Assembly: GCA_022710715.1 (NCBI GenBank)
Contig: JAKLGJ010000002.1
Span: forward strand, 501,453-565,452
Length of the DNA: 64,000 bases
Reading direction: 5' to 3'
Origin: Candidatus Omnitrophota bacterium
GTDB lineage: Bacteria > Omnitrophota > Gorgyraeia > Gygaellales > Profunditerraquicolaceae
Numbering within the stretch: position 1 is the stretch's first letter; every line of letters begins with the position of its first letter. Positions 19,226 to 42,263 of this stretch are shown here, piece by piece. The notes under the pieces are model-generated. The model was given only the letters and a program-made list of their open reading frames with translations. It made no database searches and had not been told where the DNA came from. The position numbers and the translations under genes are program-made.

Positions 19226-19268
19226 TAGCCTGGAGAGCGATAAGGGAAAATCCTCCGGGTACAACACA

Positions 19269-20349
19269 TATGAAAAAAAGTCCGGTCTATACCGTTTCAG
19301 TCAACGAATCAGACAGCCAGGAGGACGTCGCCGGCAAGTTAGAACGTCTTCTGCAGGCGGGTCGCCTGTTGCAGTGGGTCGCGCCCGGGGACCGGACTGC
19401 GGTGAAAATGCATTTCGGAGAGCAGGGCAATACCGGTTTTGTCCGGCCGGCATATATCCGGGTAATCTGTGAAGCGATCGGCCGGCAGCAGGGAGTACCG
19501 TTCCTTGCCGATACCAACACGCTCTATAAAGGCCGGCGGACCACGTCCGCGGAGCATCTCAAGCTTGCGGCTGAACACGGTTTCGTCCCCGCGCAGGTAG
19601 CGGCAGAAGTGATCATTCCCGACGATACCCGAAAGGAAGAGGTGCGGGAAGTGCCGGTGAACGGCGCGTATGTCAAAACCGCGAAAATTGCCGCTGTGTT
19701 CCGGGAAGCGGACGGGCTGGTCGATGTGGCGCATTTCAAGGGGCACCTGATGACAGGTTTCGGCGGTGTGCTCAAGAACGCGGGCATGGGCTGCGCCACC
19801 CGCGAGGGAAAGCTTTTTCAGCACTCGGATGTGGCGCCGTTCGTGATCACGCGCAAATGCACCGGTTGCTCATCCTGTTCGGGGGTGTGCCCGGTTCAGG
19901 CGATCGTTCTGCGCGAGGGTAAAGCTGCGGTCGATCCCGCCCGGTGCATCGGTTGCGCGAGTTGCATTGCCGCCTGCGCGTATGCGGCCATCGATGTTAA
20001 ATGGGAATCCGGCGGCAACGTCATGCAGGAAAAAATGGCCGAATACGCCTGGGCCGTGCTGCAGAATAAAAAAGGAAAATCGGTTTTCATCAATTTCGCC
20101 CTCAAGATAACCCGGGAGTGCGATTGTCTGGCCAAGGACGATCCCCGCGTCGTCGCTGACATCGGGATATTCGCTTCGTTCGACCCGGTGGCCTGCGACA
20201 AGGCCTGTTTTGACGCGGTGTGCGCCAGAGCGGGGAAGGATATTTTCCGCGAATTGCATCCTCAACGAGACGGTATGAAACAACTGCGCCATGCCGCGGC
20301 TATGGGGCTGGGGGCGCTGGACTATGAACTGATCAGGGCGGGTGAGTAA
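19269..20349 (+). CDS. cytoplasmic DUF362 domain + 2x[4Fe-4S] ferredoxin fusion (COG2768-like)
   Basis: DUF362-like N-region; CTGCSSCSGVCP and CIGCASCIAACA ferredoxin motifs. Confidence 0.65.
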
Positions 20350-24927: not shown

Positions 24928-26151
24928 ATGGAACGGGTTAAACGCATCTTGATTATCTCGAGCGATAAGACGTTGCGCGACGTGCTGATGTTCTGTTTCG
25001 ACGGCTGGGGATATGAAGTGTTCCTGCAGGACGTCCCGGGGAACGACGTTAATCAGATCAAACGGATTTCTCCGGACGTGATCGTGGTTGACGTGCAAAC
25101 CGCGCGCAAGCCGCAGCTGGAGATCTGCCAGTTGCTCAAAGACGATTTTCTCACCGCGTTCATCCCCATCATTACCATTATCAATAAACGGCAGCTGCGC
25201 CAGCAATTGCTCGACATCCGCCAGGGCGTCGACGATTATCTGATCAAGCCGCCGGATCCGCTGGATCTGCGCATCCGCATCGAAATGGCTTTGAAGCGCT
25301 CCCAGTACAGCTATCACACCAACACGCTCACCGGGTTGCCCGGCGCGCGGATCATCGAAGAATGCGTCCGGGACAAGATCCACCAGGGTAAGCCGTTTTC
25401 CTTCGGTTACGTCGACATCGACAATTTTAAATTCTTCAACGACGCCTACGGGTATCACAAAGGCGATAAAGCGATCATGCAGGTCGCCTATATGCTTTAC
25501 ACGGTGATCAAAGAAGCCGGCAACCCGGAGGATTTTATCGGGCATATCGGCGGCGACGATTTTGTTTTTGTCACCACGCCGGAGAAATACGCGGCGATCT
25601 GCCGCAGCTTCATCGAGCAGTTCGACACGCTTATGCCGTTTCATTATTCGGCGGAAGATCGTGATCAGGGATTCGTGATGGCCCGGGACCGCACGCATAA
25701 GGTGCGCAAGCTTCCGTTGATGAGTTTATCCATTGCCGTGGTCAACTGCAGCGAGTCCCAGCCGTTCAAGAGCCTGGTAGAGGTCAGCGACAGAGTGGCG
25801 GAGATCAAGGGATATTTGAAAGCCCAGCCGGGCAGCAAATTCATGGCGGATCGCAGAAGCGGCGATGCCGTTAACGGCGCAGAGCCGCAATCTGCCGGTC
25901 CGGCGCCTGCGGAAAAGCGCTCCCGGACGCATAGGCCGCTGGGACAGATTCTTATCGAGCGCAAATGTATTACTGTCGAGCAGCTGGACGAGGCGTTGCG
26001 CGTCAACTGGCATCGCGGGGTAGCCCTGGGCGAGATACTCAAGGAATGCGGATATATCAAAGATCCGGATCTGCAAAGCGCTCTGGAAGCGCAAAAAGCA
26101 CTTTCTGCGCCGGGTGGCGAAATCGTCCCGCGGCCGCAGATGCTTAATTAA
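24928..26151 (+). CDS. REC + GGDEF-like (GGDDF variant) + C-terminal tandem MshEN-like motif protein
   Basis: REC domain; GGDEF fold with HIGGDDF in place of GGDEF/GGEEF; C-terminal LGQILIERKCITVEQLDEAL and LGEILKECGYIKDPDLQSAL repeats. Confidence 0.75.
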   Translation: MERVKRILIISSDKTLRDVLMFCFDGWGYEVFLQDVPGNDVNQIKRISPDVIVVDVQTARKPQLEICQLLKDDFLTAFIPIITIINKRQLRQQLLDIRQGVDDYLIKPPDPLDLRIRIEMALKRSQYSYHTNTLTGLPGARIIEECVRDKIHQGKPFSFGYVDIDNFKFFNDAYGYHKGDKAIMQVAYMLYTVIKEAGNPEDFIGHIGGDDFVFVTTPEKYAAICRSFIEQFDTLMPFHYSAEDRDQGFVMARDRTHKVRKLPLMSLSIAVVNCSESQPFKSLVEVSDRVAEIKGYLKAQPGSKFMADRRSGDAVNGAEPQSAGPAPAEKRSRTHRPLGQILIERKCITVEQLDEALRVNWHRGVALGEILKECGYIKDPDLQSALEAQKALSAPGGEIVPRPQMLN

Positions 26152-27025: not shown

Positions 27026-30000
27026 ATGAAGATGATGCGCAGAGTTATGGCAGTGGTGGTGGGATTTTGTTTACTCCTGGAGCAGACCGGATTCGCTCAA
27101 GTCGCTCCGCAATTCAATGTCCCGGCATACCTCAACGGTTATGTGGCTGCGGATAAATTCCGTCCGGTTCAATTGCGTTCGATCTCTCTGGGCCAGGATG
27201 CCCAGGATCTGAACCTCTATCTCGACGCCGGAGACGCCAGGAATATCTCTTCCCGTCAGGCCAAGGAATCCGCGCGCCAGCTTCTGGAATATTTCCGCGT
27301 CGGCCTCGCTTTGCCCAACCAGTCTTTCTGGGTGAATCTGCGCCCGGATGCGCAAGACAAGATCCTGGACATGTCGCTGGAAAGAACCGACATGGGAAAA
27401 ATTCTGCTGGAAGCCGATCTGCAACTTAAGAAAGATCTGGCTGCCTTCACTTCTCCGGATACCCGCGAGGGCAAGCAGTACTGGAACCGGCTTTACGCCA
27501 GAGCCGAGCAGATCTTCGGACCGGACAATATCACCATTCCTACGATTACCCGGCCCTGGATCGTTCCGGGCGAGATCATCCTGCGCCAGAGCCAGGAGAG
27601 CGCCTACATTTATAAGGCTACCCTGAAAGTGATGCTCGAGCAGGATTGGTTCGCGCAGCCGGATGCCGCGCTGGGCATCAGCGCCGCAGTCATGGCTGAC
27701 AAGCGGGTTCAGGAACTTAACGCTTATTCATCCGAATTGATCCGCACGCATATCCTTCCTAAATTAACCGCGGAAGTCAACTCTTCGCGCAAGTACGCCG
27801 CTTTGCGCCAGGTCTATTATTCGCTCATTCTGGCGCAATGGTACAAGCGGCAATTTCAGGGCAAAGACAACGCCTATGCGAGGCGCATCGACAGCCGCGA
27901 TCTGTCCGGCCTGGAATCGCGACACGCGTGGTCAAAAACCACCGCTTTTAATGCTTACAAGAAATCATTTTCCGAGGGTGAATATAAGAAAGAGGAAATG
28001 GTACGCAGCGGCAAAAATGTGATCGTGCACCGGTATTTCAGCGGCGGCGTGAGCGTGGTGAACACCATGGCCGCGCAGAACAGCGTGAGTAACCAGGTAT
28101 TCACCAGCAACAACGCGGCATTGACCGAACCGTTGATCGCTTATTCCGCCCAGACCGACGAGGTCACTCCCGCGCAGCAGAGCGAGGTCGCGGTCAAGGA
28201 TACTGAAACCCAGGAAGAACCGGCGGGCCGCCTGGAAAAAGGCTGGGTCATTGCCAACCATATCCTGGTTTCTTTCCACGTGGCGTTCATCGTTTCTCTG
28301 TTGAGCCTGCCTGTAGCCGAGATGTTCAGCAAATGGGATGTCCTGCAATACGTGTTTGCCAGCGCGGAAACTCCTTTGAGCGCGTTGTTGTGGTATATCG
28401 GCTGGCACAGCGGCATCGCCCTGCACGAAATGGGCCATTACCTCAAGGCGGTGAAGACGTCCGCTTTGAGAGCCGAACTGCTCCCGGCAGCAGAGGCAAA
28501 GATGCGCCAGGGTTTTCTGGGTAGAATGAAGTGGTACGCAGAGATGTTCGTGAAAATTCCCTGGGGTAAATTCGAAGGGGTGAAGAAAGTAGGCAGAGGC
28601 ATTGCCGCTAATTATTATCCGGATGCGCCATTCAACGCAGCAGTTGCCGCAGAAGGACCCCGTTTCAGCGGGAAAGTAGCCAAGCTTACCCTGCCTGCAG
28701 GCATAGGGTTACTGGCGGCTGGTCTCTTTGCCCAGACTGTGCCGGCTTTTGCCGGTATAGGCGATGCTCTGGTTTTCCTGGGCAGAATGTTTTTCGGTAT
28801 CGGCGCGATCTCTTTTCTCGATTACAAAATGGCTGATCCCGGTAAGCTTGCCGAGTTTGACGAGCGCGAGCGCAAAGCCGCGGAAAAAGCCAAGGCTGTT
28901 ACCGCAGAAACAGTGCAGGCCGAGCAAATCTCCTGGAAGGATCAGATGGGCGACGTTAAGAAGAAAATGCTCCGGCAGCGCATTCAGGAAGCGGAAACCC
29001 GCTGGGGCGTATCTATTCGCGCTCCCTGGGGTTGGCGCAACTCCGGTATGGGCGGACGCCATACCGAGAAAGAATACCCGCAGAGCAACATTTCCATGCA
29101 GGAAGCCATGTTCATTCCTTTAAGCGCTAAAACCTACGAAGACGCGCAGCGCATGGTCGTAGAGCTGCAAACCCGGTTGCATCAAATCATCAATAAAGTC
29201 GAAGGCGCCCGCGTTGAAGGTATCGGTCTGGAAGGCGGTCTGGCTACGTATATTGAAAAGGATCCCAGCGATCTGGTTCCTGAACAGCGCTTATGGCGCT
29301 TGATGGTGCAGGCAATCAAAGAGTCGGGTTTTAAACCCGGCGAGGATGTGGTTCTGGCATTCGACCCGGCGGCAAGCGAGTTGGAAATCGCCTATCGCGA
29401 AAAGTACGAACAGCCTGATGCGGTAGGTATGTATCTGTTCTGGCGCGACGCCAACCAGGTAGTGATGAGCCGCGATCAGTTGATGGATCTGTATGATTGG
29501 GCGATCGAGAACAATATTCCTTTGATCTCCGGCGAGGATTTATTCGCGGAGGACGATTATGAAGGATGGAAGCTGGCCATGGCCAAGTATGGCGATGTGA
29601 TGTTCATCATCGGAGACGATGTGGCTACTACTAATGCCCACACCGTAGAATTCCTCGCGGACGAAAAGCTGATAAATACCCTGTTGGTCAAAGCCAATCA
29701 GATCGGCTCATTAGCCGAGACATTGCTGGCTATGTTGACCGGCCTGGGCAAGGGGTTGGAAATGGTGGTTTCCCACCGTTCCAAGTCTCCCAATGACGAT
29801 ATGGAAGCGCAGGTAGCATTGTCGGTTAACGCCGTAGGGTTAAAAGCCGGCGGCGGCGCCAATACCGAGAGATTGGTCAAGTACGGCGCTATTATCAAGA
29901 TGATGAAAGAAGCCATCCTGGATGCGGCCATGAAAGACAGCAGGGGAGTGACCAACAAGGAGCTGGAGCAGCAGGTGACCGCGGTTATTGATCAGCTGCA

Positions 30001-31270
30001 GATCACCAGGATCGTCGCGTACGAGGAATCGACCAATGCGGGTATCCCGACCGCAGGTGCGACGGTGAGCTTCGGCATTCCCGGGAGCTTGAGGTACGAG
30101 AGTCTTTTCAAGATGTCGGGTTCCACTCCGCTGGGCACCAGCGCCGGCACCGGAGAAGCGATCCATCTGATCGATTCTAACTTTGCCCCGAATGAACTGA
30201 CCGCGCAGTATCCCGACCTGTTCGACAAAAGCGCCACCGGAACGTATTCGTTCAAAAAGTCGGTTGACGATAATCAGATTATCGCCAAAGACGATGCCGT
30301 CCTTACGGAGTTTTATAAGAGGGCGAACCGTTACAGCGGCAAAGGCGTATTGAACGCGGTTTCCAACGTGGAAAAGATACTGGCGGAGAAGTTTGTCGGC
30401 AAAAAGTTATCGGAGTTGGGCGGCATTGAGAATATAGATAAGGTTTTGCTGGAAGCGGAATTCGAATTAGGCGTGGCGCGCGGTTTGATCAGTCGCGATG
30501 CGCCGATGGATGAAAAGATCAAGTTCATGCAGCGCAAAGGTAATATCGGCATGAATGCGCTTCTTTCCACATCCCTGGCCTTGGGCCGCATGGTTACGGC
30601 AATGCAGGGTAAGGAATTGTGGCAGACTTTGCGCGAGACGATGGCGACGACCATCGCCCGCACTATCGCCGAAAGCGAAGGCGTCAGCGCGCAGGAGCTG
30701 GAGCAGAACTATACCTTCGAACAGCTGGTCGAAAAGTTGCAGAAGTTCGAACAGGCGCGCAAGGAGCGCAAAGACGAACGTCCGTTGTATGCGTATCTGG
30801 AAGCGGCGTTGCCGGTATACGGCGAGGCTGACGGCGGGTCGCAGGTGCAGGACGGCGGATTGAAGACCGATGCGCAGGAAGTCGTCGAGCAGCAGACCGT
30901 GGCGGTTGAGCAGCAGGCTGCTGCGGCGAATCAGGCTCCGGAAGAGCTCGGCGGCGTGGATCTGCGCGCTTTGCCGGTGTCGGTCAAGCCGGTCGATGCA
31001 TCGCGGGTCGTTCCGGTTAATTCCGCGCTGCTGAAAATGTCCCTCCAGGACCTGGATAAGACCTGGACGGATTTGCGCGGCAAAGTGGAAGGGCAAGCGG
31101 TCCCGTACCAGCAGCTCAAAGAATACGTGGCTGCCTGCAAGTCCCGCGCTGATGCCGCAAAGCAGCTGGCGCAGGTGCGCCGTTACATCGGCGAACTGCT
31201 CAAGCTCGAGGAAGAGAGGGCTATCGCATCCTCTTCCGAGATGCATGAGATTGTCGGTATTATCGGCTAA
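27026..31270 (+). CDS. giant secreted/membrane protein A: signal peptide + conserved N-domain + 4-TM region with HEMGH motif + circularly permuted enolase-like domain + Q/E/A-rich tail
   Basis: AAAGGAGAGG RBS; 1414 aa; enolase barrel motifs (AFDPAASE, IGDDVATTN, LLVKANQIGSL, VVSHRS, LVKYG) precede enolase N-domain motifs (ITRIVAYEESTNAGIPT.., PLGTSAGTGEAIHL, RYSGKGVLNAV). Confidence 0.85.
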   Translation: MKMMRRVMAVVVGFCLLLEQTGFAQVAPQFNVPAYLNGYVAADKFRPVQLRSISLGQDAQDLNLYLDAGDARNISSRQAKESARQLLEYFRVGLALPNQSFWVNLRPDAQDKILDMSLERTDMGKILLEADLQLKKDLAAFTSPDTREGKQYWNRLYARAEQIFGPDNITIPTITRPWIVPGEIILRQSQESAYIYKATLKVMLEQDWFAQPDAALGISAAVMADKRVQELNAYSSELIRTHILPKLTAEVNSSRKYAALRQVYYSLILAQWYKRQFQGKDNAYARRIDSRDLSGLESRHAWSKTTAFNAYKKSFSEGEYKKEEMVRSGKNVIVHRYFSGGVSVVNTMAAQNSVSNQVFTSNNAALTEPLIAYSAQTDEVTPAQQSEVAVKDTETQEEPAGRLEKGWVIANHILVSFHVAFIVSLLSLPVAEMFSKWDVLQYVFASAETPLSALLWYIGWHSGIALHEMGHYLKAVKTSALRAELLPAAEAKMRQGFLGRMKWYAEMFVKIPWGKFEGVKKVGRGIAANYYPDAPFNAAVAAEGPRFSGKVAKLTLPAGIGLLAAGLFAQTVPAFAGIGDALVFLGRMFFGIGAISFLDYKMADPGKLAEFDERERKAAEKAKAVTAETVQAEQISWKDQMGDVKKKMLRQRIQEAETRWGVSIRAPWGWRNSGMGGRHTEKEYPQSNISMQEAMFIPLSAKTYEDAQRMVVELQTRLHQIINKVEGARVEGIGLEGGLATYIEKDPSDLVPEQRLWRLMVQAIKESGFKPGEDVVLAFDPAASELEIAYREKYEQPDAVGMYLFWRDANQVVMSRDQLMDLYDWAIENNIPLISGEDLFAEDDYEGWKLAMAKYGDVMFIIGDDVATTNAHTVEFLADEKLINTLLVKANQIGSLAETLLAMLTGLGKGLEMVVSHRSKSPNDDMEAQVALSVNAVGLKAGGGANTERLVKYGAIIKMMKEAILDAAMKDSRGVTNKELEQQVTAVIDQLQITRIVAYEESTNAGIPTAGATVSFGIPGSLRYESLFKMSGSTPLGTSAGTGEAIHLIDSNFAPNELTAQYPDLFDKSATGTYSFKKSVDDNQIIAKDDAVLTEFYKRANRYSGKGVLNAVSNVEKILAEKFVGKKLSELGGIENIDKVLLEAEFELGVARGLISRDAPMDEKIKFMQRKGNIGMNALLSTSLALGRMVTAMQGKELWQTLRETMATTIARTIAESEGVSAQELEQNYTFEQLVEKLQKFEQARKERKDERPLYAYLEAALPVYGEADGGSQVQDGGLKTDAQEVVEQQTVAVEQQAAAANQAPEELGGVDLRALPVSVKPVDASRVVPVNSALLKMSLQDLDKTWTDLRGKVEGQAVPYQQLKEYVAACKSRADAAKQLAQVRRYIGELLKLEEERAIASSSEMHEIVGIIG

Positions 31271-31368
31271 ACGGCCGGTAGATCAATGATGTTCAAGGAA
31301 GCCACGGTTCTGGATTGAGCGATCAGTCGAGCACCGTGGCTTTCTGCTCTGTGGAGAGGCGTGTGATC

Positions 31369-34300
31369 ATGCATAGAGGCATCGGATCCATCCGAAAAAC
31401 AGTCTCCATTCTAACCAGCCTGGTTCTGCTGCTGCAGACGGCAGGCTTCGCTCAAGTTTTTTCTCCGTCCGCGGTCAATGCGGATGTTCCCGCATCACGC
31501 CTGTCCGGCTGCTGCCGGCCCATGCATCTGCGCTGGCTGGCAGTGGATCCGGATAACCGGTCATTCAACGTCATTCTGGACACCGGAGACGCAACCGGTA
31601 TTTCCCCCCGACGCCTGCGCGAAGAATCTCAAAAACTCATCGAATATTTCCTCATCGGTCTGGTCCTGCCCAACAGCTCGTTCTGGGTAAATCTACGCCC
31701 CGACGCGCCTTTGCGCGTTATTGATCCTTTGCTGGAGCGCACCGACGTCGGCAGGATACTGCTGGAAGCCGATGTGCGTTTGAAAAAAGATCTGGCCGCA
31801 TATACGTCTCCCGCCACCGCGCAAGGGCGGCGTTACTGGGATGCGTTGTATAAACGGGCTGCAGAGCTGTTTGGTCCGGCGCAGATAACCGTTTCCACCG
31901 CTTCCCGTCCCTGGATCGTGCCCGGCGAGATCATCATCGGCGAAGGCGAACAGGGAGCGTATGTGTATAAGGCGACTCTGGACGTGCGCTTGGAAGACGA
32001 TTGGATCGGCCGTTCGGATCCTGTGTTGAAACAGCTCAACGCGTACGGCGCGCAATTGCTCAAGCGGGAAATCCTGCCCGGGCTGATCAAAGAAGTGAAT
32101 ACCTCGGAGAAATACGCTGCTCTGCGCCAGGTGTACTATTCGCTGATCCTGGCGCAATGGTTCAAACTGCATCCGGCTCAGGCCGGCGCTTCCCTGTCCG
32201 CGATCGTCGACGCAGCAGATCCCGTCGGACTGGCTTCGAGCATTCCCTGGTCCAAGAATACATTTACTGCCGAATATCGCCGGTCCCTGCAGGCGGGCGA
32301 ATACAACCAGAAAGAATACGTGCCGACTTCCGCGGGCTTGAGTCTGCGTCAGTACGCCAGCGGAGGCGCGCTTTTCAACGGCAGCAGCCGGGTTCTTTCG
32401 GTGTCGCCGGGATTGGGCCGGGCAGTTCTGCATGCGCCGGCGCCGTACCGGCAGGCGCTCGAAGTTCCTTTTCCGCAGGCGGTGCGCGTTGTGCTTTCCC
32501 GTCGGTCAAACGTTGACACGCATGCGGATGAGCCGGATGGCGGTACCCAGGCGCAGGAAGAGATACGCATTATGGCATTGTACGGCGGTTTGCAGCGGTT
32601 GACGAATTTTGTGCTGAAAGAATCCCGCCCGTCGGCAGCGCGATTGCTGCCGGATATCGCCAGGTCGGGGCACGCGCAGATGGTCGCCGCGGTAGTGCCC
32701 GAACTGATGCGCGCCGCGGCTTCCAGTAACCGGCCCGATATCCGGGCGGCTGCCAATGAATGCCTTGCCGCGGTCCGGTCCCCGGCTCAGACGGCTGCAC
32801 TCGAGCCGGTTGCGCCGGAGTCGTCTCTGCAGCCGGCTGCCGTTTCCGCGGTAGACCGGGAAAACCTCGCCGGTTTTCTCCACGCGATGGGCGGCCGGGA
32901 TATCAACGCAGCCATTGCCGCATGTGCGGCCATGCGCGCATTGTTCAAAGAGAAGCCGGGTTTGTGGGCAGACCGGCAGGTCGTTGAAGCTGTCGGGCCT
33001 GTTCTGAAAAGCAGTTTTCCGAGAGCGCGATTGGCGCTGATGGAAGCCGTTGAACAAAGTATCAGCGCTCCGGTCAGCGATGAGCTTCTTTTCCTGGTTT
33101 TAAAAGGAATGAATGATCGCGACGACCAGGTGAGCGAAAGAGCGCTTTTCGCGTTCGCGCGCATACTCGCCGCGGAGCCGCGCCCGGGTCATACCGGTGA
33201 GGCGCTTGCCCGGATCATGGATGAGCCGGAATCTTTCGCTATTGCCGGGTTGGTATTCGACCTTATCGCCAGAAAGGGCGCCGGCGAGCTTGAACCGCTC
33301 TGGCAGTTGCACGCCGGAAACCGGGCGCACTTGCGCCGGGCGCTGGAGCAGAATCTCGCCGATGCCGCTTTTCCGGGATTGTATACGCTAAACGACGTTT
33401 CCTGGCGCGGGCTGGCCGAACAACTGATTGAATACAACCGTCTTACCGCCGATGCGGACGCGCCGCTGCGTTCGGTGATCGTCAAGATGCTCCTGGCCCG
33501 CGAAGGCGCGGTGTCTTTCGGCCGGATGAAATGGCTGGTGGCTGAATCGCTTTCGTATTTCCACGTCAATCTCGCGCATGCGCTGGAAAAAACGCGTTCG
33601 GTCGCCCTGCGCCGGCAGCTGATCAAGGCTTCCGGCGTGAGTACCGCGGACAGCATCGAAGTGTTGCGCACCCGGGCCATCCGGTTCGCGGCCATCGCGG
33701 ACAACGATACGAGTTTCGATTCTTCCAGAGGCGTGGCCGGACGTATTCGCAGCGATATCCATCTGCGTCTTTCTCCCCAGGACTTGCGCGCGGTCAGAGC
33801 CTACCGCACATTCCTCGACGGAGACGCTTCCGAACTGACCGCTCTGGGGTATACGATCAGTGAATCCGACCGCGTCCCGCCGGAACGCAAGGCGCGGGTG
33901 GCCGCGGCCGCCGAAGATCTGCTGGACGCGCTGGAGGAGATATTCGGCGAAGAGAGCGGGAAAGGGGTGAGGGCGTATTTCGCTCTGGCGAAAAAGATGT
34001 TCCGGGACCATCCGGTTCTCGCGAATGAGATCCAGGAAATTCTTGATTTTTCCGGAAAGAAAGATCTGGCGTATCTGGAGCGGATCAATGCGGCCAGGAG
34101 CCTTCTGGCGGAGGTCGGCCGAACCATGCGCTCGACGGAACTGATGATGAGTATCGGGCTGGATAACGCGCTGGAGAACCTGTATTACGGGGGCGTTGCC
34201 GCTTTCGAACCGTCGGTGGATTACGCCGATGATCTGCAGACGCTGAAGGTTGTGCGCAGCCTGATGGAAGCGGTGCGGTTGAACGGTTACTGTCGGGAAG

Positions 34301-36342
34301 AGATCGCGATGATTGTTTTGCAGGTCGAAGCGGTGCTGGCGAGAGGGATACGCAATCAGGAAGACCGGCTGGAGATCTATGCGCTGTACCGCCGGCTGGA
34401 GCGGATGATCAAAGGTATTTCCCAGGAGACGATCAACGATTATCAGGAGATCGCGCAGCGCCTGGGCGCTGCCGCGGGCAAAGCCGATGCTCCCTGGGTC
34501 GGCGAATTCTCCGCTCAACTGATGCGCCGGGACGTGGTGTACTGGCTGGCCAGCGTGACGGAGAAAGCGATGCAGTCGGCCATGTCTTCCGCGGGGATCA
34601 GCGGCTGGCAGGTGATCCAGGAAGGCGTCGCGCGGGGAAGGATCAAAGTGATCGTCGATAATGAGGATTTCGCCGGCCTCAAGGATGATGAAATAGCGGT
34701 CGCCGCGCAGCTTCCCGACGACAGCCGGTTTCTTATTCATGCCAGAGGGATCATTACCACCGGGGTGGAATGTTTGCTGTCTCATCCCGCAGTCCGGGCG
34801 CGGCAGCAGAAAACGGTTTTCGTCTCCGCTCCATCTCTGGATGAGGCAAAAAAATACGCCGGGCAATGGGTAGAGCTGTCAGCGCAGGGAGAGCAGGTGA
34901 TCATCCGGCCTCAAGCTGAAGCCGAGGCGCAGCGGGAAGCTTCGATCGTGCCGAAGAAAAAGCCGGCCGGGGCGATTGCACCGGTGGAGCCTGACCGCGC
35001 CTGGAGTGCGGCAGTGGTTCTCCCGTCGGATTATACGCCGCAGCGGGTAGGTAATAAAGCGTATACCTTGAGCCGGATACCGGATAATCTTATCGCCGGG
35101 CAGAGAACGGCCCGTCATTTCAGTTTGAGCTTCGCTTTTTTCGATGCGGTGTTGGCGCTTGAGATTAATCGCGCCCGCAAACAGGAGTTGCAGGTTTTGC
35201 AGCAACGGGTGATCCAGGCAGCCCGGGATCAGGATGTGCGTGAGGATTTACGGCGTATGCGGGCTTTGGTGGAAGAGCTCGAGCTGCCGCAGCAAACGCT
35301 GGGAGAAATCGTCGCCACCGCGACGGAGTTGTTTGGCCGGGAAACGCCGCTTTTCCTGCGCTCCAGCACCAATGCCGAAGACCTGGCGGATTATTCGGGC
35401 GCAGGGGTGTATGATTCTTTCGGCGCGGTAACGCTTTCTCCGCCGGACATCGCCCGCCATGTCAAAAAGGTATGGGCTTCAGTCTGGAATGAGAAAGCGT
35501 TTTTCGACCGCCAGGCGAATGCTATCGATCACGCCGCGGTGCGGCCGGCAGTCTTGATCCAGGAGATGCTGAATCCGGAGTATTCCTTTGTCATCCATAC
35601 CCGGTCGCCGGTCAACGGCAATGACGGGGCGGTGCTCATCGAAGCGGTGCAGGGATTCGGGGAAACGCTGGTCAGCGGCCTGGACGCTTACGCCGGGCAG
35701 GCGTATCGTTTCAGCGTGGATAAGTCTACCGGCGAGCTCAAGTTGATCTCGTTCGCGAATAAGAGCCGCAAGATCGTTGTGCGCGCCGGCCGTTTCAACG
35801 ATGCCGCCGCGGATTATCACGATGACTGGCTGGTGACGCCTGAAGGACGGCAACTTCTGCAGCGCATAGGCATGGCCGCGATCAAACTCGCGGACGCCGC
35901 AGGCGCCGCCCAGGATATCGAGGGCGTGATCGTCAATGACCGGGACGGGCGCACAGTCGGATTCGTCCAGACGCGCGCGCAGGTTATGCTGAATGCGGAC
36001 GGCGGCAATCTTCTGGGCGGAGTGGATCTGCGCCTGTTATCCGCCGACAATGCCGCCGCGGCCGGCGCGCAGATCCCGCGGGCGCGCGGGATATTCCTGG
36101 AGCGGTCCGCCGCCGAATGCGACGGGATCTGTCGCGCTCTGCTTGCCGGATTGGAACGTGACCCGTCGTCGCTGGAAGGATTGCGGGAATACGTGGTGGA
36201 GATGGGCGTCCGGGCGGACGCAGAGCAGCGGTTGAAAGACGTGTCCATCTGGTTGATGAACCGGCTGCGCATGGAAGAGGCGGCTGTGATGAAAACTCCC
36301 GCGCCGCTGCGGGAAGCGCTTGTCTGCCTCGGCGCGAGGTAA
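31369..36342 (+). CDS. giant secreted protein B (paralog of A): signal peptide + conserved N-domain + HEAT/ARM-like helical repeats + C-terminal PEP-utilizing-enzyme ATP-grasp (PPDK_N-like) domain
   Basis: GGAGAGG RBS then ATG 31369 (ORF opens 31315); N-domain clearly homologous to A (e.g. SFWVNLRPDA, RPWIVPGEII, KYAALRQVYYSLILAQW identical); C-terminus has LRSSTNAEDLADYSGAG and VLIQEMLNPEYSFVIHTRSPVNGNDGAVLIEAVQGFGETLVSG. Confidence 0.85.
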   Translation: MHRGIGSIRKTVSILTSLVLLLQTAGFAQVFSPSAVNADVPASRLSGCCRPMHLRWLAVDPDNRSFNVILDTGDATGISPRRLREESQKLIEYFLIGLVLPNSSFWVNLRPDAPLRVIDPLLERTDVGRILLEADVRLKKDLAAYTSPATAQGRRYWDALYKRAAELFGPAQITVSTASRPWIVPGEIIIGEGEQGAYVYKATLDVRLEDDWIGRSDPVLKQLNAYGAQLLKREILPGLIKEVNTSEKYAALRQVYYSLILAQWFKLHPAQAGASLSAIVDAADPVGLASSIPWSKNTFTAEYRRSLQAGEYNQKEYVPTSAGLSLRQYASGGALFNGSSRVLSVSPGLGRAVLHAPAPYRQALEVPFPQAVRVVLSRRSNVDTHADEPDGGTQAQEEIRIMALYGGLQRLTNFVLKESRPSAARLLPDIARSGHAQMVAAVVPELMRAAASSNRPDIRAAANECLAAVRSPAQTAALEPVAPESSLQPAAVSAVDRENLAGFLHAMGGRDINAAIAACAAMRALFKEKPGLWADRQVVEAVGPVLKSSFPRARLALMEAVEQSISAPVSDELLFLVLKGMNDRDDQVSERALFAFARILAAEPRPGHTGEALARIMDEPESFAIAGLVFDLIARKGAGELEPLWQLHAGNRAHLRRALEQNLADAAFPGLYTLNDVSWRGLAEQLIEYNRLTADADAPLRSVIVKMLLAREGAVSFGRMKWLVAESLSYFHVNLAHALEKTRSVALRRQLIKASGVSTADSIEVLRTRAIRFAAIADNDTSFDSSRGVAGRIRSDIHLRLSPQDLRAVRAYRTFLDGDASELTALGYTISESDRVPPERKARVAAAAEDLLDALEEIFGEESGKGVRAYFALAKKMFRDHPVLANEIQEILDFSGKKDLAYLERINAARSLLAEVGRTMRSTELMMSIGLDNALENLYYGGVAAFEPSVDYADDLQTLKVVRSLMEAVRLNGYCREEIAMIVLQVEAVLARGIRNQEDRLEIYALYRRLERMIKGISQETINDYQEIAQRLGAAAGKADAPWVGEFSAQLMRRDVVYWLASVTEKAMQSAMSSAGISGWQVIQEGVARGRIKVIVDNEDFAGLKDDEIAVAAQLPDDSRFLIHARGIITTGVECLLSHPAVRARQQKTVFVSAPSLDEAKKYAGQWVELSAQGEQVIIRPQAEAEAQREASIVPKKKPAGAIAPVEPDRAWSAAVVLPSDYTPQRVGNKAYTLSRIPDNLIAGQRTARHFSLSFAFFDAVLALEINRARKQELQVLQQRVIQAARDQDVREDLRRMRALVEELELPQQTLGEIVATATELFGRETPLFLRSSTNAEDLADYSGAGVYDSFGAVTLSPPDIARHVKKVWASVWNEKAFFDRQANAIDHAAVRPAVLIQEMLNPEYSFVIHTRSPVNGNDGAVLIEAVQGFGETLVSGLDAYAGQAYRFSVDKSTGELKLISFANKSRKIVVRAGRFNDAAADYHDDWLVTPEGRQLLQRIGMAAIKLADAAGAAQDIEGVIVNDRDGRTVGFVQTRAQVMLNADGGNLLGGVDLRLLSADNAAAAGAQIPRARGIFLERSAAECDGICRALLAGLERDPSSLEGLREYVVEMGVRADAEQRLKDVSIWLMNRLRMEEAAVMKTPAPLREALVCLGAR

Positions 36343-36821: not shown

Positions 36822-38297
36822 ATGATGGAGACGATCAAGAGAGAAGAAGTGGAGCGTTATCTGGAGCGGGGCAGGGATTTTATCGACGATGCCCTGATCG
36901 AACGCCTGCTGGAAGAGAATAAACAGCCCGATGCGCGGGCTGTGCGGGAGATCATTGCCCGGGCCCTGGAGATCAAGACGCTGGAGCCTGCGCAAACCGC
37001 GGCGTTATTGCAGGTGCAGGATGATGCGCTCTGGGAAGAGATTTTCCAGGCCGCCGCGAAGATCAAGACCAAAGTGTATGATAACCGGGTGGTGACGTTT
37101 GCGCCTTTGTACGCCGCGAATAAGTGCGTGAATAATTGTTCTTACTGCGGGTTCAGGCGGGAGAATCCGGCGATCCAGCGCCGGGTGCTGGATTTCGACG
37201 CGATCCGGGAAGAAACGCGCGTGCTTGCCGGCAAGCTTGGCCACAAACGCCTGATTTTCGTGTGCGGCGAACATCCGGAGTCCGGGGCGGATTATATCGC
37301 CGAGAGCATGCGCACCATTTACAGCGTGAAAGAAAAAGTGCGCAACGGACGCGGAGAGATCCGCAGGGTCAATGTCAATGCCGCGCCGATGAGCGTGGGC
37401 GATCTGATCAAGATCAAAGACGCCGGCATCGGCACCTTTCAGGTTTTTCAGGAAACCTATCATCACGCCACCTATGCCCGGGTGCATCCCGCCGGAACGG
37501 TCAAATCGGATTTCGGCTGGCGGCTGTACGCGTTGCACCGGGCGATGGAAGCCGGTATCGACGACGTGGCGATCGGCGCTCTGTTCGGTTTGTACGACTG
37601 GAAATTCGAGGTTATGGGCATGCTCTTCCACGCCCGGGACCTGGAAAAGCGTTTCGGCATCGGTCCGCACACGGTTTCCATGCCCCGGATCGAGCCGGCA
37701 GCCAACACGCCGTTTTGCGACCACGCGCCCCACCGGGTTAGCGACCGCGATTTCAAACGCCTGATCGCGGTGCTGCGTCTGTCTATTCCGTATGCCGGGA
37801 TGATCATTACCTGCCGGGAGCGCCCGGGGTTTATTCGGGATGTTATCCCGATGTGCACGCAGCGGGACGCTTCCAGCCGCATCGGCGTGGGCGCGTATAC
37901 TGGCCAGCAGCAAGAGCAGCAGCAGGATATCCAGCAATTCATCCTGGGAGATACGCGTTCCCTGGATGAAGTTATCCGCGAGCTGGCCTCTCTGGGGTAT
38001 ATCACTTCATTCTGCACCGCAGGGTACCGCTGCGGCCGCACCGGCAAGAACATCATGACCCTGCTGCGCACCGGGAAAGAAGGCTGTTTCTGCAAATTGA
38101 ACGCCATCCTGACCTTCCAGGAATGGCTGGAAGATTTTGCCAGCCGGGAAACCAGGGAGATCGGCGAGCGGATCATCGCTCAAGAGATCGCGCAGGTTAC
38201 CGAGCGGGTGCCCGCGTACTTTACGCCGGAGCTGCTGGAGAAAATGCTGGAATTTCACCGCCGGATCAAATCCGGAGAACGGGATCTGTGTTTTTAG
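36822..38297 (+). CDS. hydG: [FeFe]-hydrogenase maturase HydG (radical SAM tyrosine lyase)
   Basis: 491 aa; CVNNCSYC radical SAM motif; ThiH/HydG-like length and C-terminal Cys cluster. Confidence 0.8.
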   Translation: MMETIKREEVERYLERGRDFIDDALIERLLEENKQPDARAVREIIARALEIKTLEPAQTAALLQVQDDALWEEIFQAAAKIKTKVYDNRVVTFAPLYAANKCVNNCSYCGFRRENPAIQRRVLDFDAIREETRVLAGKLGHKRLIFVCGEHPESGADYIAESMRTIYSVKEKVRNGRGEIRRVNVNAAPMSVGDLIKIKDAGIGTFQVFQETYHHATYARVHPAGTVKSDFGWRLYALHRAMEAGIDDVAIGALFGLYDWKFEVMGMLFHARDLEKRFGIGPHTVSMPRIEPAANTPFCDHAPHRVSDRDFKRLIAVLRLSIPYAGMIITCRERPGFIRDVIPMCTQRDASSRIGVGAYTGQQQEQQQDIQQFILGDTRSLDEVIRELASLGYITSFCTAGYRCGRTGKNIMTLLRTGKEGCFCKLNAILTFQEWLEDFASRETREIGERIIAQEIAQVTERVPAYFTPELLEKMLEFHRRIKSGERDLCF

Positions 38298-38312
38298 GAA
38301 GGATTGGTATTC

Positions 38313-39572
38313 ATGGAAAAAGCGCCTAAATCGCTGCGTTTGCATATCGGGATATTCGGGCGGACCAATGTGGGCAAGTCCAGTTTTTTGAACCTGGTGG
38401 CCGGACAGGATGTGGCGATCGTGTCCGAAGTGCCCGGCACGACAACCGACGTGGTCGAGAAAACCATGGAGTTGCTTCCTCTGGGGCCGGTGGTATTCCT
38501 GGATACGGCCGGCATGGACGATACCTCCGAACTGGGATCTTTGCGGCTGAAGAAGACCCGCAAAATTTTCGACCGGTCGGATGTGGTCCTGCTGCTGCTG
38601 GAACCGGATATCTGGACGGAATATGAGGATGGTATTATTGAGGAAGCCCGGTCCAGAGCGATCCCGGTGATCCTGGTGGTGAACAAGATCGATCAGAAGC
38701 AACCTTCTTCGGCATACCTGGAACGGCTCGAAAAGGTAACCGAGCGAATAGTCCTGTGTTCCAGCCTTGACGGTAAAAAACGCGATACCTATCTTAATCC
38801 TTTGAAGCAGAAGCTGATCGAAACCTGTCCGGAAGAGTTTTTGAACCCGCCGCCATTGATCGCGGATTTGATCCCGGCCGGCGGGCTGGCAGTGCTCATC
38901 GTTCCCATCGATCTGGAAGCGCCCAAGGGAAGATTGATCCTGCCGCAGGTGCAGACTTTGCGCGATTGCCTGGATAATGGCAGCATGGCGCTGGTAGTCA
39001 AAGAGAGTGAGTATGCCGTCGCGTTGCGCCAGCTTACAAATCCTCCGGATCTGGTAGTCTGCGATTCGCAGGTGGTCTTGAAGATGGTCGAGGATACGCC
39101 GGAAACTTTGAGGTGCACTACTTTTTCCATGCTCTTCGCCCGCAATAAAGGCGATCTGGTCGAGGCGGCGCGGGGCGCGGCAATGCTGGAATCGTTGCAG
39201 CCGGGCGATAAAGTGCTGATCGCCGAAGCCTGTAGCCATCATCCTATCCAGGATGATATCGGCCGGGTGAAGATCCCCCGCTGGCTGCGGCAGTTCGTAG
39301 GCGGCGACCTGCAGATCGATGTTTCTTCCGGAAGAGATTATCCGGAAGACCTGGCGCAGTATAAGCTGATCATCCATTGCGGCGGGTGCATGCTTACCCG
39401 GCGGGAGATGCTCTTCCGGATCGAAAAAGCCCAAGAAGCAGGCGTGCCGATCACCAACTACGGCGTGGCCATATCCGTTCTGCAGGGCGTGGCGCAGCGC
39501 ACCCTGGCGCCTTTTCCCGCGGCCTGGGAAGCTTTCCGCGCGGCGCAGGGGGAGAGGGCGAAAAAAGCTTGA
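38313..39572 (+). CDS. hydF: [FeFe]-hydrogenase maturation GTPase HydF
   Basis: AGGAAGGA RBS; G1 GRTNVGKSS; C-terminal CSHH...HCGGC FeS motif. Confidence 0.85.
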   Translation: MEKAPKSLRLHIGIFGRTNVGKSSFLNLVAGQDVAIVSEVPGTTTDVVEKTMELLPLGPVVFLDTAGMDDTSELGSLRLKKTRKIFDRSDVVLLLLEPDIWTEYEDGIIEEARSRAIPVILVVNKIDQKQPSSAYLERLEKVTERIVLCSSLDGKKRDTYLNPLKQKLIETCPEEFLNPPPLIADLIPAGGLAVLIVPIDLEAPKGRLILPQVQTLRDCLDNGSMALVVKESEYAVALRQLTNPPDLVVCDSQVVLKMVEDTPETLRCTTFSMLFARNKGDLVEAARGAAMLESLQPGDKVLIAEACSHHPIQDDIGRVKIPRWLRQFVGGDLQIDVSSGRDYPEDLAQYKLIIHCGGCMLTRREMLFRIEKAQEAGVPITNYGVAISVLQGVAQRTLAPFPAAWEAFRAAQGERAKKA

Positions 39573-39693
39573 TTTTTTCGGAAAATGTGATATATTTTAA
39601 ATCTCTACTGCAAAAAGTGAAGGACTCCTTCCTGATTGCTTAGTCTCAAATTCATCCCTTTACAGTGAACGGAAAGACGAGAGAAGGTCGGCA

Positions 39694-40164
39694 ATGGAAC
39701 AGAAGATTTCTATTGAAATCAAAAATTTGGTAGATAAGTGGAAGAGCAAAGAGGGCAACCTGATCATGATCCTCCACGAGATCCAGAATCATCACGGGTA
39801 TGTCCCGCGCGAGCTTTCTCTGGAGCTTTCCCAGATGCTCGACGTTCCTCTGGCGCGCATCTACGAAGTGATCACCTTCTATAATTTCTTCAAACTCACT
39901 CCCCCGGGCAAACACAAGATCGCCGTTTGCATGGGCACGGCCTGTTATCTCAAGGGCGGCCAGGACCTGATCAACGAAGTCAAGAACATTCTGCATATCG
40001 AACCCGGACAGACCACCAAAGACGGACAATACTATCTGGATATGGTGCGTTGCCTGGGATGTTGCGGTCTGGCGCCGGTAATGATGATAGACGAGAAAGT
40101 ATACGGAAAAGTCAAGAAGAGCGAAATAATGGATATTCTCTCCAAGCACGGGAGCACAGATTAA
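39694..40164 (+). CDS. NuoE/HndA-like thioredoxin-fold [2Fe-2S] subunit
   Basis: CMGTACYLKG...CLGCCGLAP. Confidence 0.85.
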   Translation: MEQKISIEIKNLVDKWKSKEGNLIMILHEIQNHHGYVPRELSLELSQMLDVPLARIYEVITFYNFFKLTPPGKHKIAVCMGTACYLKGGQDLINEVKNILHIEPGQTTKDGQYYLDMVRCLGCCGLAPVMMIDEKVYGKVKKSEIMDILSKHGSTD

Positions 40165-40167
40165 ACC

Positions 40168-40518
40168 ATGGATAAACTGACCCCAGAGGCAATCGACAGG
40201 ATATTCAAACAGAACCGGCAGCAGTCCGCCAACTGGATCAAGGTCGGGATGAGCACCTGCGGCATTGCCGCCGGCGCGGATGAAGTGTATGCCACCCTGG
40301 TCGAAGAAATAAAGAAACGCAATATACAGGTTACGGTCAAGAAATGCGGTTGCCTGGGTATGTGCCACGCCGAACCCCTGGTGGAAGTCTGCGTGGACGG
40401 CATGCCCACCGTGATCTACGGCCGGGTGAACAAGGAAATCGCGGTAAAGATACTGGATAAACACGTTAATTCCAAAGCATTGTTAAACGATTATATTTTC
40501 GATCTCGAGACCAAATAA
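40168..40518 (+). CDS. HndB-like small [2Fe-2S] ferredoxin-domain subunit
   Basis: STCGIAAGA...CGCLGMCHAEP. Confidence 0.7.
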   Translation: MDKLTPEAIDRIFKQNRQQSANWIKVGMSTCGIAAGADEVYATLVEEIKKRNIQVTVKKCGCLGMCHAEPLVEVCVDGMPTVIYGRVNKEIAVKILDKHVNSKALLNDYIFDLETK

Positions 40519-40520
40519 TC

Positions 40521-42260: not shown

Positions 42261-42263
42261 CCT

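What the first reader, a model, noticed from the sequence alone, without database searches (positions are those of the whole stretch)
29000..30640. Apparently circularly permuted enolase-like domain inside giant protein A
In protein A the enolase TIM-barrel segment comes first. In order it shows GGRHTEKEY..MQEAMFIPLSAKTYEDA, GIGLEGG, AFDPAASE, GEDLFAEDDYEGW, IGDDVATTN, LLVKANQIGSLAET, VVSHRS and LVKYGAIIKMMKE. The segment corresponding to the enolase N-terminal domain follows it. That segment shows ITRIVAYEESTNAGIPTAGATV, PLGTSAGTGEAIHL, RYSGKGVLNAV and KGNIGMNALLSTSLALG, with a roughly 50-aa insertion. No N-domain-like segment precedes the barrel. Positions equivalent to the metal and catalytic residues appear kept: the Asp of DPAAS, the Glu of LEGG, the Asp of GDD, the Lys of KANQIG, the His of SHRS and the Lys of VKYG. 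The SHRSGETED loop, however, is changed to SHRSKSPNDD. A permuted enolase fold fused into a membrane protein is not something I know to have been described.
Basis: partly seen in the sequence, partly recalled or inferred. Interest (0 to 1): 0.85.

Follow-up and report, generated by a model that had tools for sequence, protein, structure and literature searches.

The report
Circularly permuted, membrane-anchored enolase paralogue
This gene encodes an enolase whose two domains come in reverse order and which is fused to a zinc-motif membrane domain; the module has not been described, is found in hundreds of uncultured bacterial species, and sometimes sits right next to the normal enolase gene.

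Summary
In the 1414-aa ORF at 27026..31270 (+), the enolase TIM barrel (aa 660-975) comes before the enolase capping ("N-terminal") domain (aa 993-1204). Nothing enolase-like lies upstream. If the two pieces are re-joined in the normal order in silico, they align colinearly with solved enolases and with a canonical enolase over 420 positions (32% identity).

The permuted enolase is the C-terminal part of a conserved ~865-aa module (aa 402-1265). Its N-terminal part is a family-specific four-helix HExxH membrane domain. The module turns up in at least 306 species-level genomes of Omnitrophota, WOR-3, Planctomycetota, Aminicenantes and other phyla. Every one of the 22 members scanned with Pfam and all 86 loci show barrel before cap.

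All 12 enolase catalytic, metal and substrate residues are kept in 142 of 145 members, so the domain is probably catalytically competent. It is a paralogue rather than the housekeeping enzyme: a canonical eno gene lies beside it in 11 of 80 loci.

Its physiological role is unknown. The candidates are a membrane-tethered enolase, a metabolite sensor for an S2P-like protease, or a partner of a His-swivel dikinase. No description was found in the searchable literature. I class it as a new variant of a known kind.

The parts
27026..31270 (+). Gene A, 1414 aa. Identical to GenBank HRZ14918.1, 'hypothetical protein', Candidatus Omnitrophota MAG.
27026..27100 (+). N-terminal hydrophobic, Sec-signal-like peptide (MKMMRRVMAVVVGFCLLLEQTGFAQ).
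   Evidence: the same ...GFAQ ending occurs in relatives
27098..28225 (+). Omnitrophota-specific N-terminal domain (aa 25-400). It is not enolase-like and is shared with gene B.
28229..28840 (+). Family-specific four-helix membrane domain (aa 402-605). Carries HEMGH (nt 28424-28438), an AAEGP motif (family consensus AAAGP) and LD (D599, nt 28820-28822). M50/S2P-like by motif only.
   Evidence: S2P membership not supported
28841..29002 (+). Charged helical linker between the membrane domain and the barrel (aa 606-659).
29003..29950 (+). Enolase TIM-barrel domain (aa 660-975). Contains H679, E693, E736, D780, E837, D864, K889, H917/R918/S919 and K940.
29951..30001 (+). End of the helical connector (aa ~963-992 in all) that joins the canonical C-terminus to the canonical N-terminus; the part beyond the barrel boundary used here (aa 976-992).
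30002..30637 (+). Enolase capping ('N-terminal') domain (aa 993-1204). Includes the Mg-II loop PLGTSAGTGEA (S1039).
30182..30322 (+). 47-aa family-specific insertion in the capping domain (aa 1053-1099).
   Evidence: absent in the divergent members P0150 and P0182
30638..30820 (+). Conserved helical tail that closes the ~865-aa module (aa 1205-1265).
30821..31267 (+). Omnitrophota-type C-terminal tail with GGVDLR (nt 30950-30967). Shared with gene B and with many ~600-aa Omnitrophota proteins.
31315..36342 (+). Gene B (neighbour). Same N-domain and tail as A, HEAT repeats, a phospho-His swivel domain (aa 1098-1204), then a PPDK_N ATP-grasp domain (aa 1295-1560).

Best explanation
The segment encodes a natural circular permutant of enolase. 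The chain begins at the canonical domain boundary (about residue 139). It runs through the whole beta-beta-alpha-alpha-(beta-alpha)6 barrel to the canonical C-terminus. A ~30-aa helical connector then leads into the canonical residue 1, and the chain runs through the three-stranded-sheet and helix capping domain. This permuted enolase is always fused to the cytoplasmic end of a family-specific four-helix HExxH membrane domain. Together they form an old, conserved ~865-aa module (A aa 402-1265).

Shown here: the inverted order, the fold of the barrel, family-wide conservation of the order, invariance of every enolase catalytic, metal and substrate residue, and coexistence with a canonical eno gene in some genomes.

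Inferred: the capping domain still closes over the barrel, because its Mg-II Ser loop is invariant. The domain binds two Mg2+ and 2-phosphoglycerate/PEP, and carries out enolase-type proton abstraction and elimination at the inner face of the membrane. It acts as a specialised paralogue rather than as the housekeeping enzyme.

The HExxH...D site is conserved almost as strictly, and its catalytic Glu is lost together with the enolase site in two divergent members. This suggests the two sites work together. My best guess for the role is a membrane-tethered enolase that couples local 2-PG/PEP turnover to the membrane metallo-domain.
For: Order and permutation:
- Pfam and PDB hits are in barrel-then-cap order.
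- In-silico un-permutation gives one colinear alignment to solved enolases. It also aligns with a canonical WOR-3 enolase at 32% identity over 420 positions.
- All 22 members scanned with Pfam, including protein A, and 86 of 86 loci show the barrel before the cap.

Fold:
- AlphaFold2 model: pLDDT 85.7, pTM 0.84. The secondary-structure order matches the enolase barrel followed by a beta3-plus-helices domain.

Catalytic competence:
- H679, Q692/E693, E736, D780, E837, D864/D865, K889, H917, R918, S919, K940 and S1039 are invariant in 60 sequences.
- The full set of 12 is kept in 142 of 145 members of 780 aa or more.

Module:
- The membrane domain finds only 119 clusters among 1.84 billion representatives and no ordinary M50 protease. 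Every long member tested carries the permuted enolase.
- 136 of 145 members keep the H-E-H-D set as well as the enolase set. P0155 and P0163 lost both.

Paralogue status:
- TIGR01060 scores 183.9 (A) and 228 (WOR-3 homologue), against a cut-off of 300. The adjacent canonical eno genes score 608-610.
- A canonical eno lies next to the permuted gene in 11 of 80 loci, including the complete WOR-3 chromosome CP070664.1.

Distribution: 306 species-level genomes.
Against: - No activity data exist.
- Invariant family-specific changes sit next to the active site: SHRS-KSP instead of SHRS-GET, GLEGG instead of GDEGG, and a 4-residue insertion in the His159 loop. Substrate or regulation may therefore differ from canonical enolase.
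- I could not obtain model coordinates, so canonical packing of the cap on the barrel is inferred, not measured. Capping in trans (a domain-swapped dimer) is not excluded.
- The membrane domain could not be confirmed as an M50/S2P protease by profile or by fold.
- In protein A the signal-like peptide and N-domain ahead of TM1 conflict with the N-in topology deduced for stand-alone members. The side of the membrane on which this enolase sits is therefore not settled.
- Whether this Omnitrophota genome also has a canonical enolase is unknown. None lies in the 64-kb window.
Confidence: 0.72

Rival explanations
1. Sensor, not metabolic enzyme. The permuted enolase is the cytoplasmic ligand-sensing domain of an S2P-like intramembrane metalloprotease. 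Binding or turnover of 2-PG/PEP gates cleavage of a membrane substrate, in analogy to the ATP-binding CBS domain of SpoIVFB (own knowledge).
For: - HExxH, AAAGP (family consensus; AAEGP in A) and LD motifs lie in successive membrane helices.
- Sub-threshold Peptidase_M50 hits occur in three members, best E 1.1e-5.
- H-E-H-D is kept in 136 of 145 members and is degraded together with the enolase site in P0155 and P0163.
- The module coexists with a canonical eno, so it is not needed for glycolytic flux in those genomes.
- In 17 Planctomycetota loci a small two-TM coiled-coil protein follows in the same orientation. It could be a substrate.
Against: - A pure sensor would not need the catalytic acid/base pair (K889, E736) to stay invariant.
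- The membrane-domain profile does not find solved S2P sequences.
- No anti-sigma or sigma gene is conserved nearby.
Confidence: 0.25
2. Substrate module of a phosphotransfer machine. The enolase barrel binds PEP or 2-PG and exchanges phosphate with the swivelling phospho-histidine domain of an ATP-grasp dikinase. It takes the place of the PEP-utilizers_C barrel of PEP synthase/PPDK. The dikinase is fused in the ~2050-aa proteins and is a separate neighbour (gene B) here.
For: - About 40 of the best 120 homologues are ~2050-aa fusions of the module with PPDK_N and PEP-utilizers, and no hit to the PEP-utilizers_C barrel was reported.
- Their swivel domain keeps the KGGSTSHAA phospho-His motif.
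- 11 of 80 genome loci carry this fusion.
- In the window the next gene encodes a phospho-His domain plus PPDK_N and shares A's N-domain and tail.
Against: - Most family members (~870 aa) have no dikinase in the protein or nearby.
- B's dikinase is not detectably orthologous to the fused one.
- B's dikinase has no close relatives, and none of its relatives is fused to enolase.
- A ~740-aa region of unknown function lies between the enolase and the dikinase in the fusions and could be the true acceptor domain.
Confidence: 0.15
3. It is simply the cell's housekeeping enolase that happens to be membrane-anchored and rearranged.
For: - The full catalytic set is kept.
- JGI annotates many members as 'enolase'.
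- No canonical eno lies in this 64-kb window or in the Omnitrophota loci fetched.
- In Planctomycetota the gene sits upstream of a possibly DivIC/FtsB-like gene (one weak Pfam hit, E 0.009), a position that canonical eno often occupies (the last point from my own knowledge).
Against: - A canonical eno is present next to it in 11 of 80 loci from several lineages.
- It scores below the TIGR01060 equivalog cut-off.
- It is only 29-32% identical to canonical enolases, with invariant family-specific active-site-proximal changes.
Confidence: 0.1
4. Artefact: an assembly chimera, a frameshifted tandem duplicate, or a chance motif match.
For: None found.
Against: - It is a single intact ORF identical to a GenBank protein.
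- The same order occurs in more than 1000 proteins from independent assemblies and in 306 species genomes.
- E-values are as low as 1e-48.
Confidence: 0.01

Closest known systems
Canonical enolase / phosphopyruvate hydratase (EC 4.2.1.11; Pfam PF03952 + PF00113; TIGR01060)
   Same: - All catalytic, metal and substrate residues are the same: yeast S39, H159, E168, E211, D246, E295, D320, K345, H373, R374, S375 and K396 (yeast numbering from my own knowledge).
- About 31-32% identity.
   Different: - The domain order is inverted, a circular permutation at the domain boundary.
- It is always fused to an HExxH membrane domain.
- It has 47-, 21- and 8-aa insertions in the cap.
- SHRSKSP replaces SHRSGET and GLEGG replaces GDEGG.
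- It has an extra helical tail.
- It scores below the TIGR01060 cut-off.
- It coexists with a canonical eno in some genomes.
Site-2 protease / Peptidase M50 family with cytoplasmic regulatory domains (e.g. SpoIVFB with its CBS domain; own knowledge)
   Same: A multi-pass membrane domain with HExxH in one helix, an AGP-type motif (AAAGP consensus; AAEGP in A) and an Asp (LD) in later helices. A cytoplasmic metabolite-binding domain follows.
   Different: - Only sub-threshold Pfam similarity (best 25.3 bits against 27.2).
- No match to solved S2P proteins by profile or by fold.
- The fused domain is a complete enzyme, not a CBS or PDZ domain.
Natural circular permutants among (beta/alpha)8-barrel enzymes (e.g. 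transaldolase versus class I aldolases, GH70 glucansucrases versus GH13; own knowledge)
   Same: The same fold and catalytic residues are reached with a different chain start.
   Different: Those permutations cut within the barrel. Here the cut is between the two domains, so the barrel is intact and only its order relative to the cap is swapped. I found no precedent in the enolase superfamily.
PEP synthase / PPDK / alpha-glucan water dikinase / rifampicin phosphotransferase (His-swivel dikinases)
   Same: Gene B and the ~2050-aa fusions carry a PPDK_N ATP-grasp domain plus a phospho-His swivel domain. In B the His domain precedes the ATP-grasp domain, as in glucan water dikinase.
   Different: There is no PEP-utilizers_C barrel. 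These proteins are linked to a permuted enolase instead. B has no close relatives (28% identity or less).

Membership tests
Enolase (phosphopyruvate hydratase) | Enolase_C TIM-barrel domain above the Pfam gathering score | tested here: met
   163.7 bits against 21.5, aa 686-962
Enolase (phosphopyruvate hydratase) | Enolase_N capping domain above the Pfam gathering score | tested here: inconclusive
   34.5 bits against 35 in protein A. Clearly met in relatives: 71.7 bits in P0150, 64.2 in P0182 and 52.6 in P0143.
Enolase (phosphopyruvate hydratase) | Domain order N-domain then barrel | tested here: not met
   The barrel precedes the cap in A, in all 22 members scanned with Pfam (A included) and in 86 of 86 loci.
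Enolase (phosphopyruvate hydratase) | Full set of catalytic, metal-binding and substrate-binding residues | tested here: met
   12 of 12 in A; invariant in 60 sequences; kept in 142 of 145 members
Enolase (phosphopyruvate hydratase) | Score above the curated equivalog cut-off (TIGR01060, 300 bits) | tested here: not met
   183.9 bits; neighbouring canonical enolases score 608-610
Enolase (phosphopyruvate hydratase) | Enolase fold | tested here: met
   [not shown]
Enolase (phosphopyruvate hydratase) | 2-PG to PEP activity | not testable with these tools
   Needs an enzyme assay.
Circular permutant of a known fold | Re-ordering the two segments restores a single colinear alignment to the parent family | tested here: met
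   against the split, out-of-order hits
Peptidase M50 / site-2 protease | HExxH in a transmembrane helix plus a downstream Asp ligand in another helix | tested here: met
   HEMGH at aa 467-471 and D599. H-E-H-D is kept in 136 of 145 members that also keep the enolase set.
Peptidase M50 / site-2 protease | Pfam PF02163 above the gathering score | tested here: not met
   No hit in A. The best hit in the family is 25.3 bits against 27.2, in P0150.
Peptidase M50 / site-2 protease | Similarity to solved S2P structures or sequences | tested here: inconclusive
   [not shown]
His-swivel dikinase (gene B) | PPDK_N ATP-grasp domain plus a phospho-His swivel domain | tested here: met
   PPDK_N 109.8 bits; GWD1_pHisD 29.5 bits; LSHPAVRAR motif
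His-swivel dikinase (gene B) | PEP/pyruvate-binding TIM barrel (PEP-utilizers_C) | tested here: not met
   No hit.

The most novel reading that the evidence does not exclude
The module is a metabolite-gated intramembrane metalloenzyme. Turnover of 2-PG/PEP in the permuted enolase directly controls, or is controlled by, the HExxH site in the membrane. This would give uncultured anaerobes a hard-wired link between lower-glycolytic flux and a membrane event such as regulated proteolysis. In the dikinase-fused forms it would link flux to a phospho-histidine relay in which an enolase barrel replaces the usual PEP-binding barrel.
Probability: 0.2. Interest if true: 0.85.

Novelty: new variant of a known kind. 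Interest (0 to 1): 0.68.

Why it matters
Enolase is one of the most conserved enzymes known, and to my knowledge its two-domain order has been treated as fixed. This finding shows a natural, ancient circular permutant that keeps the whole active site. It is welded to a zinc-motif membrane domain and is present in hundreds of uncultured species across many phyla.

It matters in three ways:
- It is a ready-made natural experiment on how the capping domain and the barrel cooperate.
- It warns that "enolase present" calls in metagenome reconstructions may rest on this paralogue, since JGI already labels many members "enolase".
- It points to an unexplored link between PEP/2-PG metabolism and the membrane.

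All three are directly testable with a soluble construct.

Tried and rejected
- **Artefact or chimera.** Rejected, because the architecture is conserved family-wide.
- **Hidden N-domain upstream of the barrel.** None exists. The upstream 375 aa belong to an Omnitrophota-specific family with no enolase similarity.
- **Conserved gene neighbourhood as a clue to function.** Contexts differ between phyla. The only recurrent neighbours are the canonical eno (11 loci) and lineage-restricted Planctomycetota genes.
- **A and B as the split form of the ~2050-aa enolase-dikinase fusions.** Not supported at the orthology level.
- **AlphaFold database search for annotated look-alikes.** The library was unavailable.
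- **Literature.** Eight full-text searches and three papers opened gave no description of a permuted enolase or of an enolase-M50 fusion.
- **One script had an indexing bug**. It was redone correctly.
- **Look-up of gene B's exact sequence**. I used a start one codon too early, so its absence from the collection means nothing.


Full report
**The observation**

The window holds one uninterrupted ORF at 27026..31270 (+), 1414 aa. It is identical to GenBank HRZ14918.1, a "hypothetical protein" of a Candidatus Omnitrophota MAG.

Pfam places Enolase_C at aa 686-962 (E 7.6e-48). Enolase_N follows at aa 1090-1143 (E 2.6e-8, 34.5 bits against a gathering score of 35). There is no enolase hit upstream. 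TIGR01060 matches in two stretches, at 183.9 bits, below its 300-bit cut-off.

Against solved structures, the barrel matches enolase residues ~155-420. Fragments of the N-domain (residues 57-97 and 104-136) match further downstream.

**Is it a true circular permutation?**

I re-joined the two parts in canonical order (aa 992-1215 followed by aa 656-991). A single colinear alignment to solved enolases now spans residues ~55-418.

Later I obtained a bona fide canonical enolase from a WOR-3 chromosome (TIGR01060 607.8 bits). The re-joined sequence aligns with it end to end, with 136 identities in 420 aligned positions (32%). That alignment fixes the anatomy:
- The chain is cut between canonical residues ~138 and ~139, which is the boundary between the capping domain and the barrel.
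- The canonical C-terminus is joined to the canonical N-terminus by a helical connector (aa ~963-992).
- The cap carries insertions of 8, 47 (aa 1053-1099) and 21 residues.

I could not retrieve coordinates. Canonical packing of the cap on the barrel is therefore inferred from the invariance of its Mg-II Ser loop, not measured.

**Active site**

In the 60-sequence alignment the following residues are invariant: H679, Q692/E693, E736, D780, E837, D864/D865, K889, H917/R918/S919, K940 and S1039. They are equivalent to yeast H159, Q167/E168, E211, D246, E295, D320/D321, K345, H373/R374/S375, K396 and S39. The yeast numbering comes from my own knowledge. The motif correspondence is shown directly.

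Across 145 family members of at least 780 aa, 142 keep all twelve residues.

K940 in GLKAGG is. SHRSKSPxxD, GLEGG and a four-residue insertion after GGRH are invariant family signatures.

**The unit of conservation**

Homologues align with A over aa ~402-1265 at about 50% identity. This module comprises a membrane domain, a charged helical linker, the permuted enolase and a helical tail.

The membrane domain has four long hydrophobic helices, HEMGH at aa 467-471, an AGP-type motif (AAAGP in the family consensus, AAEGP in A) and LD (D599).

The module occurs in several forms:
- stand-alone ~850-940-aa proteins (WOR-3, Stahlbacteria, Cloacimonadota, Ignavibacteria, Planctomycetota);
- ~2050-aa fusions with PPDK_N and a PEP-utilizers swivel domain (Aminicenantes, Thermoanaerobaculia/Holophagae and others);
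- tandem duplicates (P0002, P0003);
- an N-terminal HD-domain version (P0058);
- insertions inside giant proteins in Omnitrophota and others (a 3214-aa ORF in L028; P0129 of 6041 aa).

A scan of one genome per species found 306 confirmed loci. The best 80 are all MAGs or SAGs.

A search with the membrane domain alone against 1.84 billion representatives found only 119 clusters and no ordinary M50 protease. All nine of the most divergent long members still show the membrane domain, then Enolase_C, then Enolase_N. The barrel precedes the cap in 86 of 86 loci.

**The membrane domain**

The H-E-H-D set is kept, together with the enolase set, in 136 of 145 members. The two members that lost the enolase set (P0155, P0163) also lost the Glu of HExxH. 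This hints at coupling, but on very small numbers.

**Paralogue, not housekeeping enzyme (at least in some lineages)**

In 11 of 80 loci a full-length canonical enolase lies next to the permuted gene:
- It is 47-100 nt downstream on the same strand in WOR-3 and Stahlbacteria, including the complete chromosome CP070664.1.
- It is also present in L035 and in a Phycisphaerae MAG (L086).
- It is convergent in two Asgard-labelled MAG contigs (L030, L032).

Identity between the neighbours (29-32%) is no higher than to unrelated PDB enolases, so the adjacency does not reflect a recent duplication. No canonical eno lies in this 64-kb window. Whether this genome has one elsewhere could not be checked.

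**Context in the window**

Gene B (31315..36342) follows A after about 45-100 nt. It shares A's N-terminal ~330 aa (47% identity) and its C-terminal tail. It also carries HEAT repeats, a phospho-His swivel domain and then a PPDK_N ATP-grasp domain.

B's dikinase is not detectably orthologous to the dikinase of the ~2050-aa fusions. It has no close relatives. The link between the permuted enolase and a dikinase is therefore suggestive: many fusions, plus this adjacency. It is not a conserved gene pair. The fused dikinases keep the KGGSTSHAA phospho-His motif and gave no hit to a PEP-utilizers_C barrel.

**Mechanism**

Shown: the permutation, the barrel fold, the invariant active site, obligatory fusion to the HExxH membrane domain, and coexistence with a canonical eno in several lineages.

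Inferred: the domain binds two Mg2+ and 2-PG/PEP and is catalytically competent at the inner membrane face. It serves a specialised role tied to the membrane domain.

Charge bias in stand-alone members supports an N-in topology with four TM helices and a cytoplasmic enolase. The N-tail has K+R 4.5 against D+E 1.6, the TM2-TM3 loop 8.2 against 3.8, and the post-TM4 segment 8.8 against 5.6.

Three rivals remain:
- a sensor domain for an S2P-like protease;
- the PEP/2-PG-binding module of a His-swivel phosphotransfer enzyme;
- a plain housekeeping enolase.

An artefact is excluded.

**Unresolved**

Proteins A and B both begin with a Sec-type signal-like peptide, followed by the Omnitrophota-specific domain. 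If that domain is exported, the four-TM core and the enolase would be inverted relative to stand-alone members. B, an ATP-grasp enzyme with no other TM segment, would then lie outside the cell. In other Omnitrophota the same N-domain is fused to phosphoglycerate kinase and to a canonical-order enolase.

**Novelty**

No Pfam or NCBIfam model describes the architecture. NCBI calls the proteins "hypothetical" and JGI calls many of them "enolase". Eight full-text searches and three papers opened gave no report of a permuted enolase or of an enolase-M50 fusion.

I rate it a new variant of a known kind, with interest 0.68. The structural finding is solid and would surprise specialists in the enolase superfamily. 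Its biology is still open.

Noticed in passing
L021:8627-9910 (+), L017:8677-10032 (+); also L020, L025, L026, L027, L033, L035, L086, L030, L032: A full-length canonical enolase (TIGR01060 608-610 bits) lies directly beside the permuted membrane enolase in 11 of 80 genome loci. In WOR-3 and Stahlbacteria it is only 47-100 nt downstream on the same strand.
   Followed up: yes
window 31315-36342 (+): Gene B has the same N-domain and C-tail as A, HEAT repeats, and then a phospho-His swivel domain placed before the PPDK_N ATP-grasp domain (the order seen in glucan water dikinase). There is no PEP-utilizers_C barrel and no close relatives (28% identity or less).
   Followed up: partly
window 27026-28225 and 31369-32370; relatives P0236-P0355: An Omnitrophota-specific ~330-375-aa N-terminal domain follows a Sec-like signal peptide ending in ...GFAQ (324 relatives). 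In other proteins it is fused to phosphoglycerate kinase (P0278), a canonical-order enolase (P0283) and HEAT repeats. This implies either exported glycolytic-type enzymes or an unusual cytoplasmic scaffold. It conflicts with the topology deduced for the stand-alone module.
   Followed up: partly
window 30950-31267 and 36013-36339: A shared C-terminal module, GGVDLR (GGIDF/GGIDL in relatives) followed by a ~100-aa helical tail, also ends many ~600-aa Omnitrophota proteins. Its function is unknown.
   Followed up: no
L028:751-10395 (+): A 3214-aa Omnitrophota protein holds the module together with a UDPGP domain and a Glu/Leu/Phe/Val dehydrogenase. In the dehydrogenase the NAD-binding domain (aa 618-774) precedes its 'N-terminal' dimerisation domain (aa 909-1008). 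This is a second enzyme with inverted domain order.
   Followed up: no
P0129 (6041 aa); L053 (no stop codon in 14.6 kb): Giant proteins embed the module among many domains separated by a recurring 'ERGAV' linker peptide, including a segment that looks SIS/phosphoglucose-isomerase-like by eye (not tested). P0001, the closest relative of A, ends in a cupin-type glucose-6-phosphate isomerase hit.
   Followed up: no
P0002 (1844 aa), P0003 (1666 aa): These proteins carry two tandem copies of the membrane-domain-plus-permuted-enolase module.
   Followed up: no
P0155, P0163, P0167: Divergent members have degraded sites. P0155 and P0163 lost the enolase catalytic set and also the Glu of HExxH (HMxxH). 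P0167 lost HExxH only.
   Followed up: partly
L036, L051, L065, L071, L079 and 12 more Planctomycetota loci: A conserved ~170-190-aa protein with two TM segments and a coiled coil lies ~160 nt downstream on the same strand (DivIC hit only at E 0.009). Divergently upstream are phosphatidylserine decarboxylase and a CDP-alcohol phosphatidyltransferase.
   Followed up: partly
L030 (Sifarchaeum-labelled) and L032 (Promethearchaeota-labelled): Two contigs binned as Asgard archaea carry the bacterial-type module next to an enolase. This could be a binning error or a horizontal transfer.
   Followed up: no
window 36822-44018 (+); also 17639-20349 and 24928-26151: Downstream of B lies an [FeFe]-hydrogenase cluster: a radical-SAM/BATS HydE/G-like gene, HydF, a NuoF-like subunit and the hydrogenase large subunit. 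Upstream are ferredoxin-domain proteins and a response-regulator-GGDEF gene.
   Followed up: no
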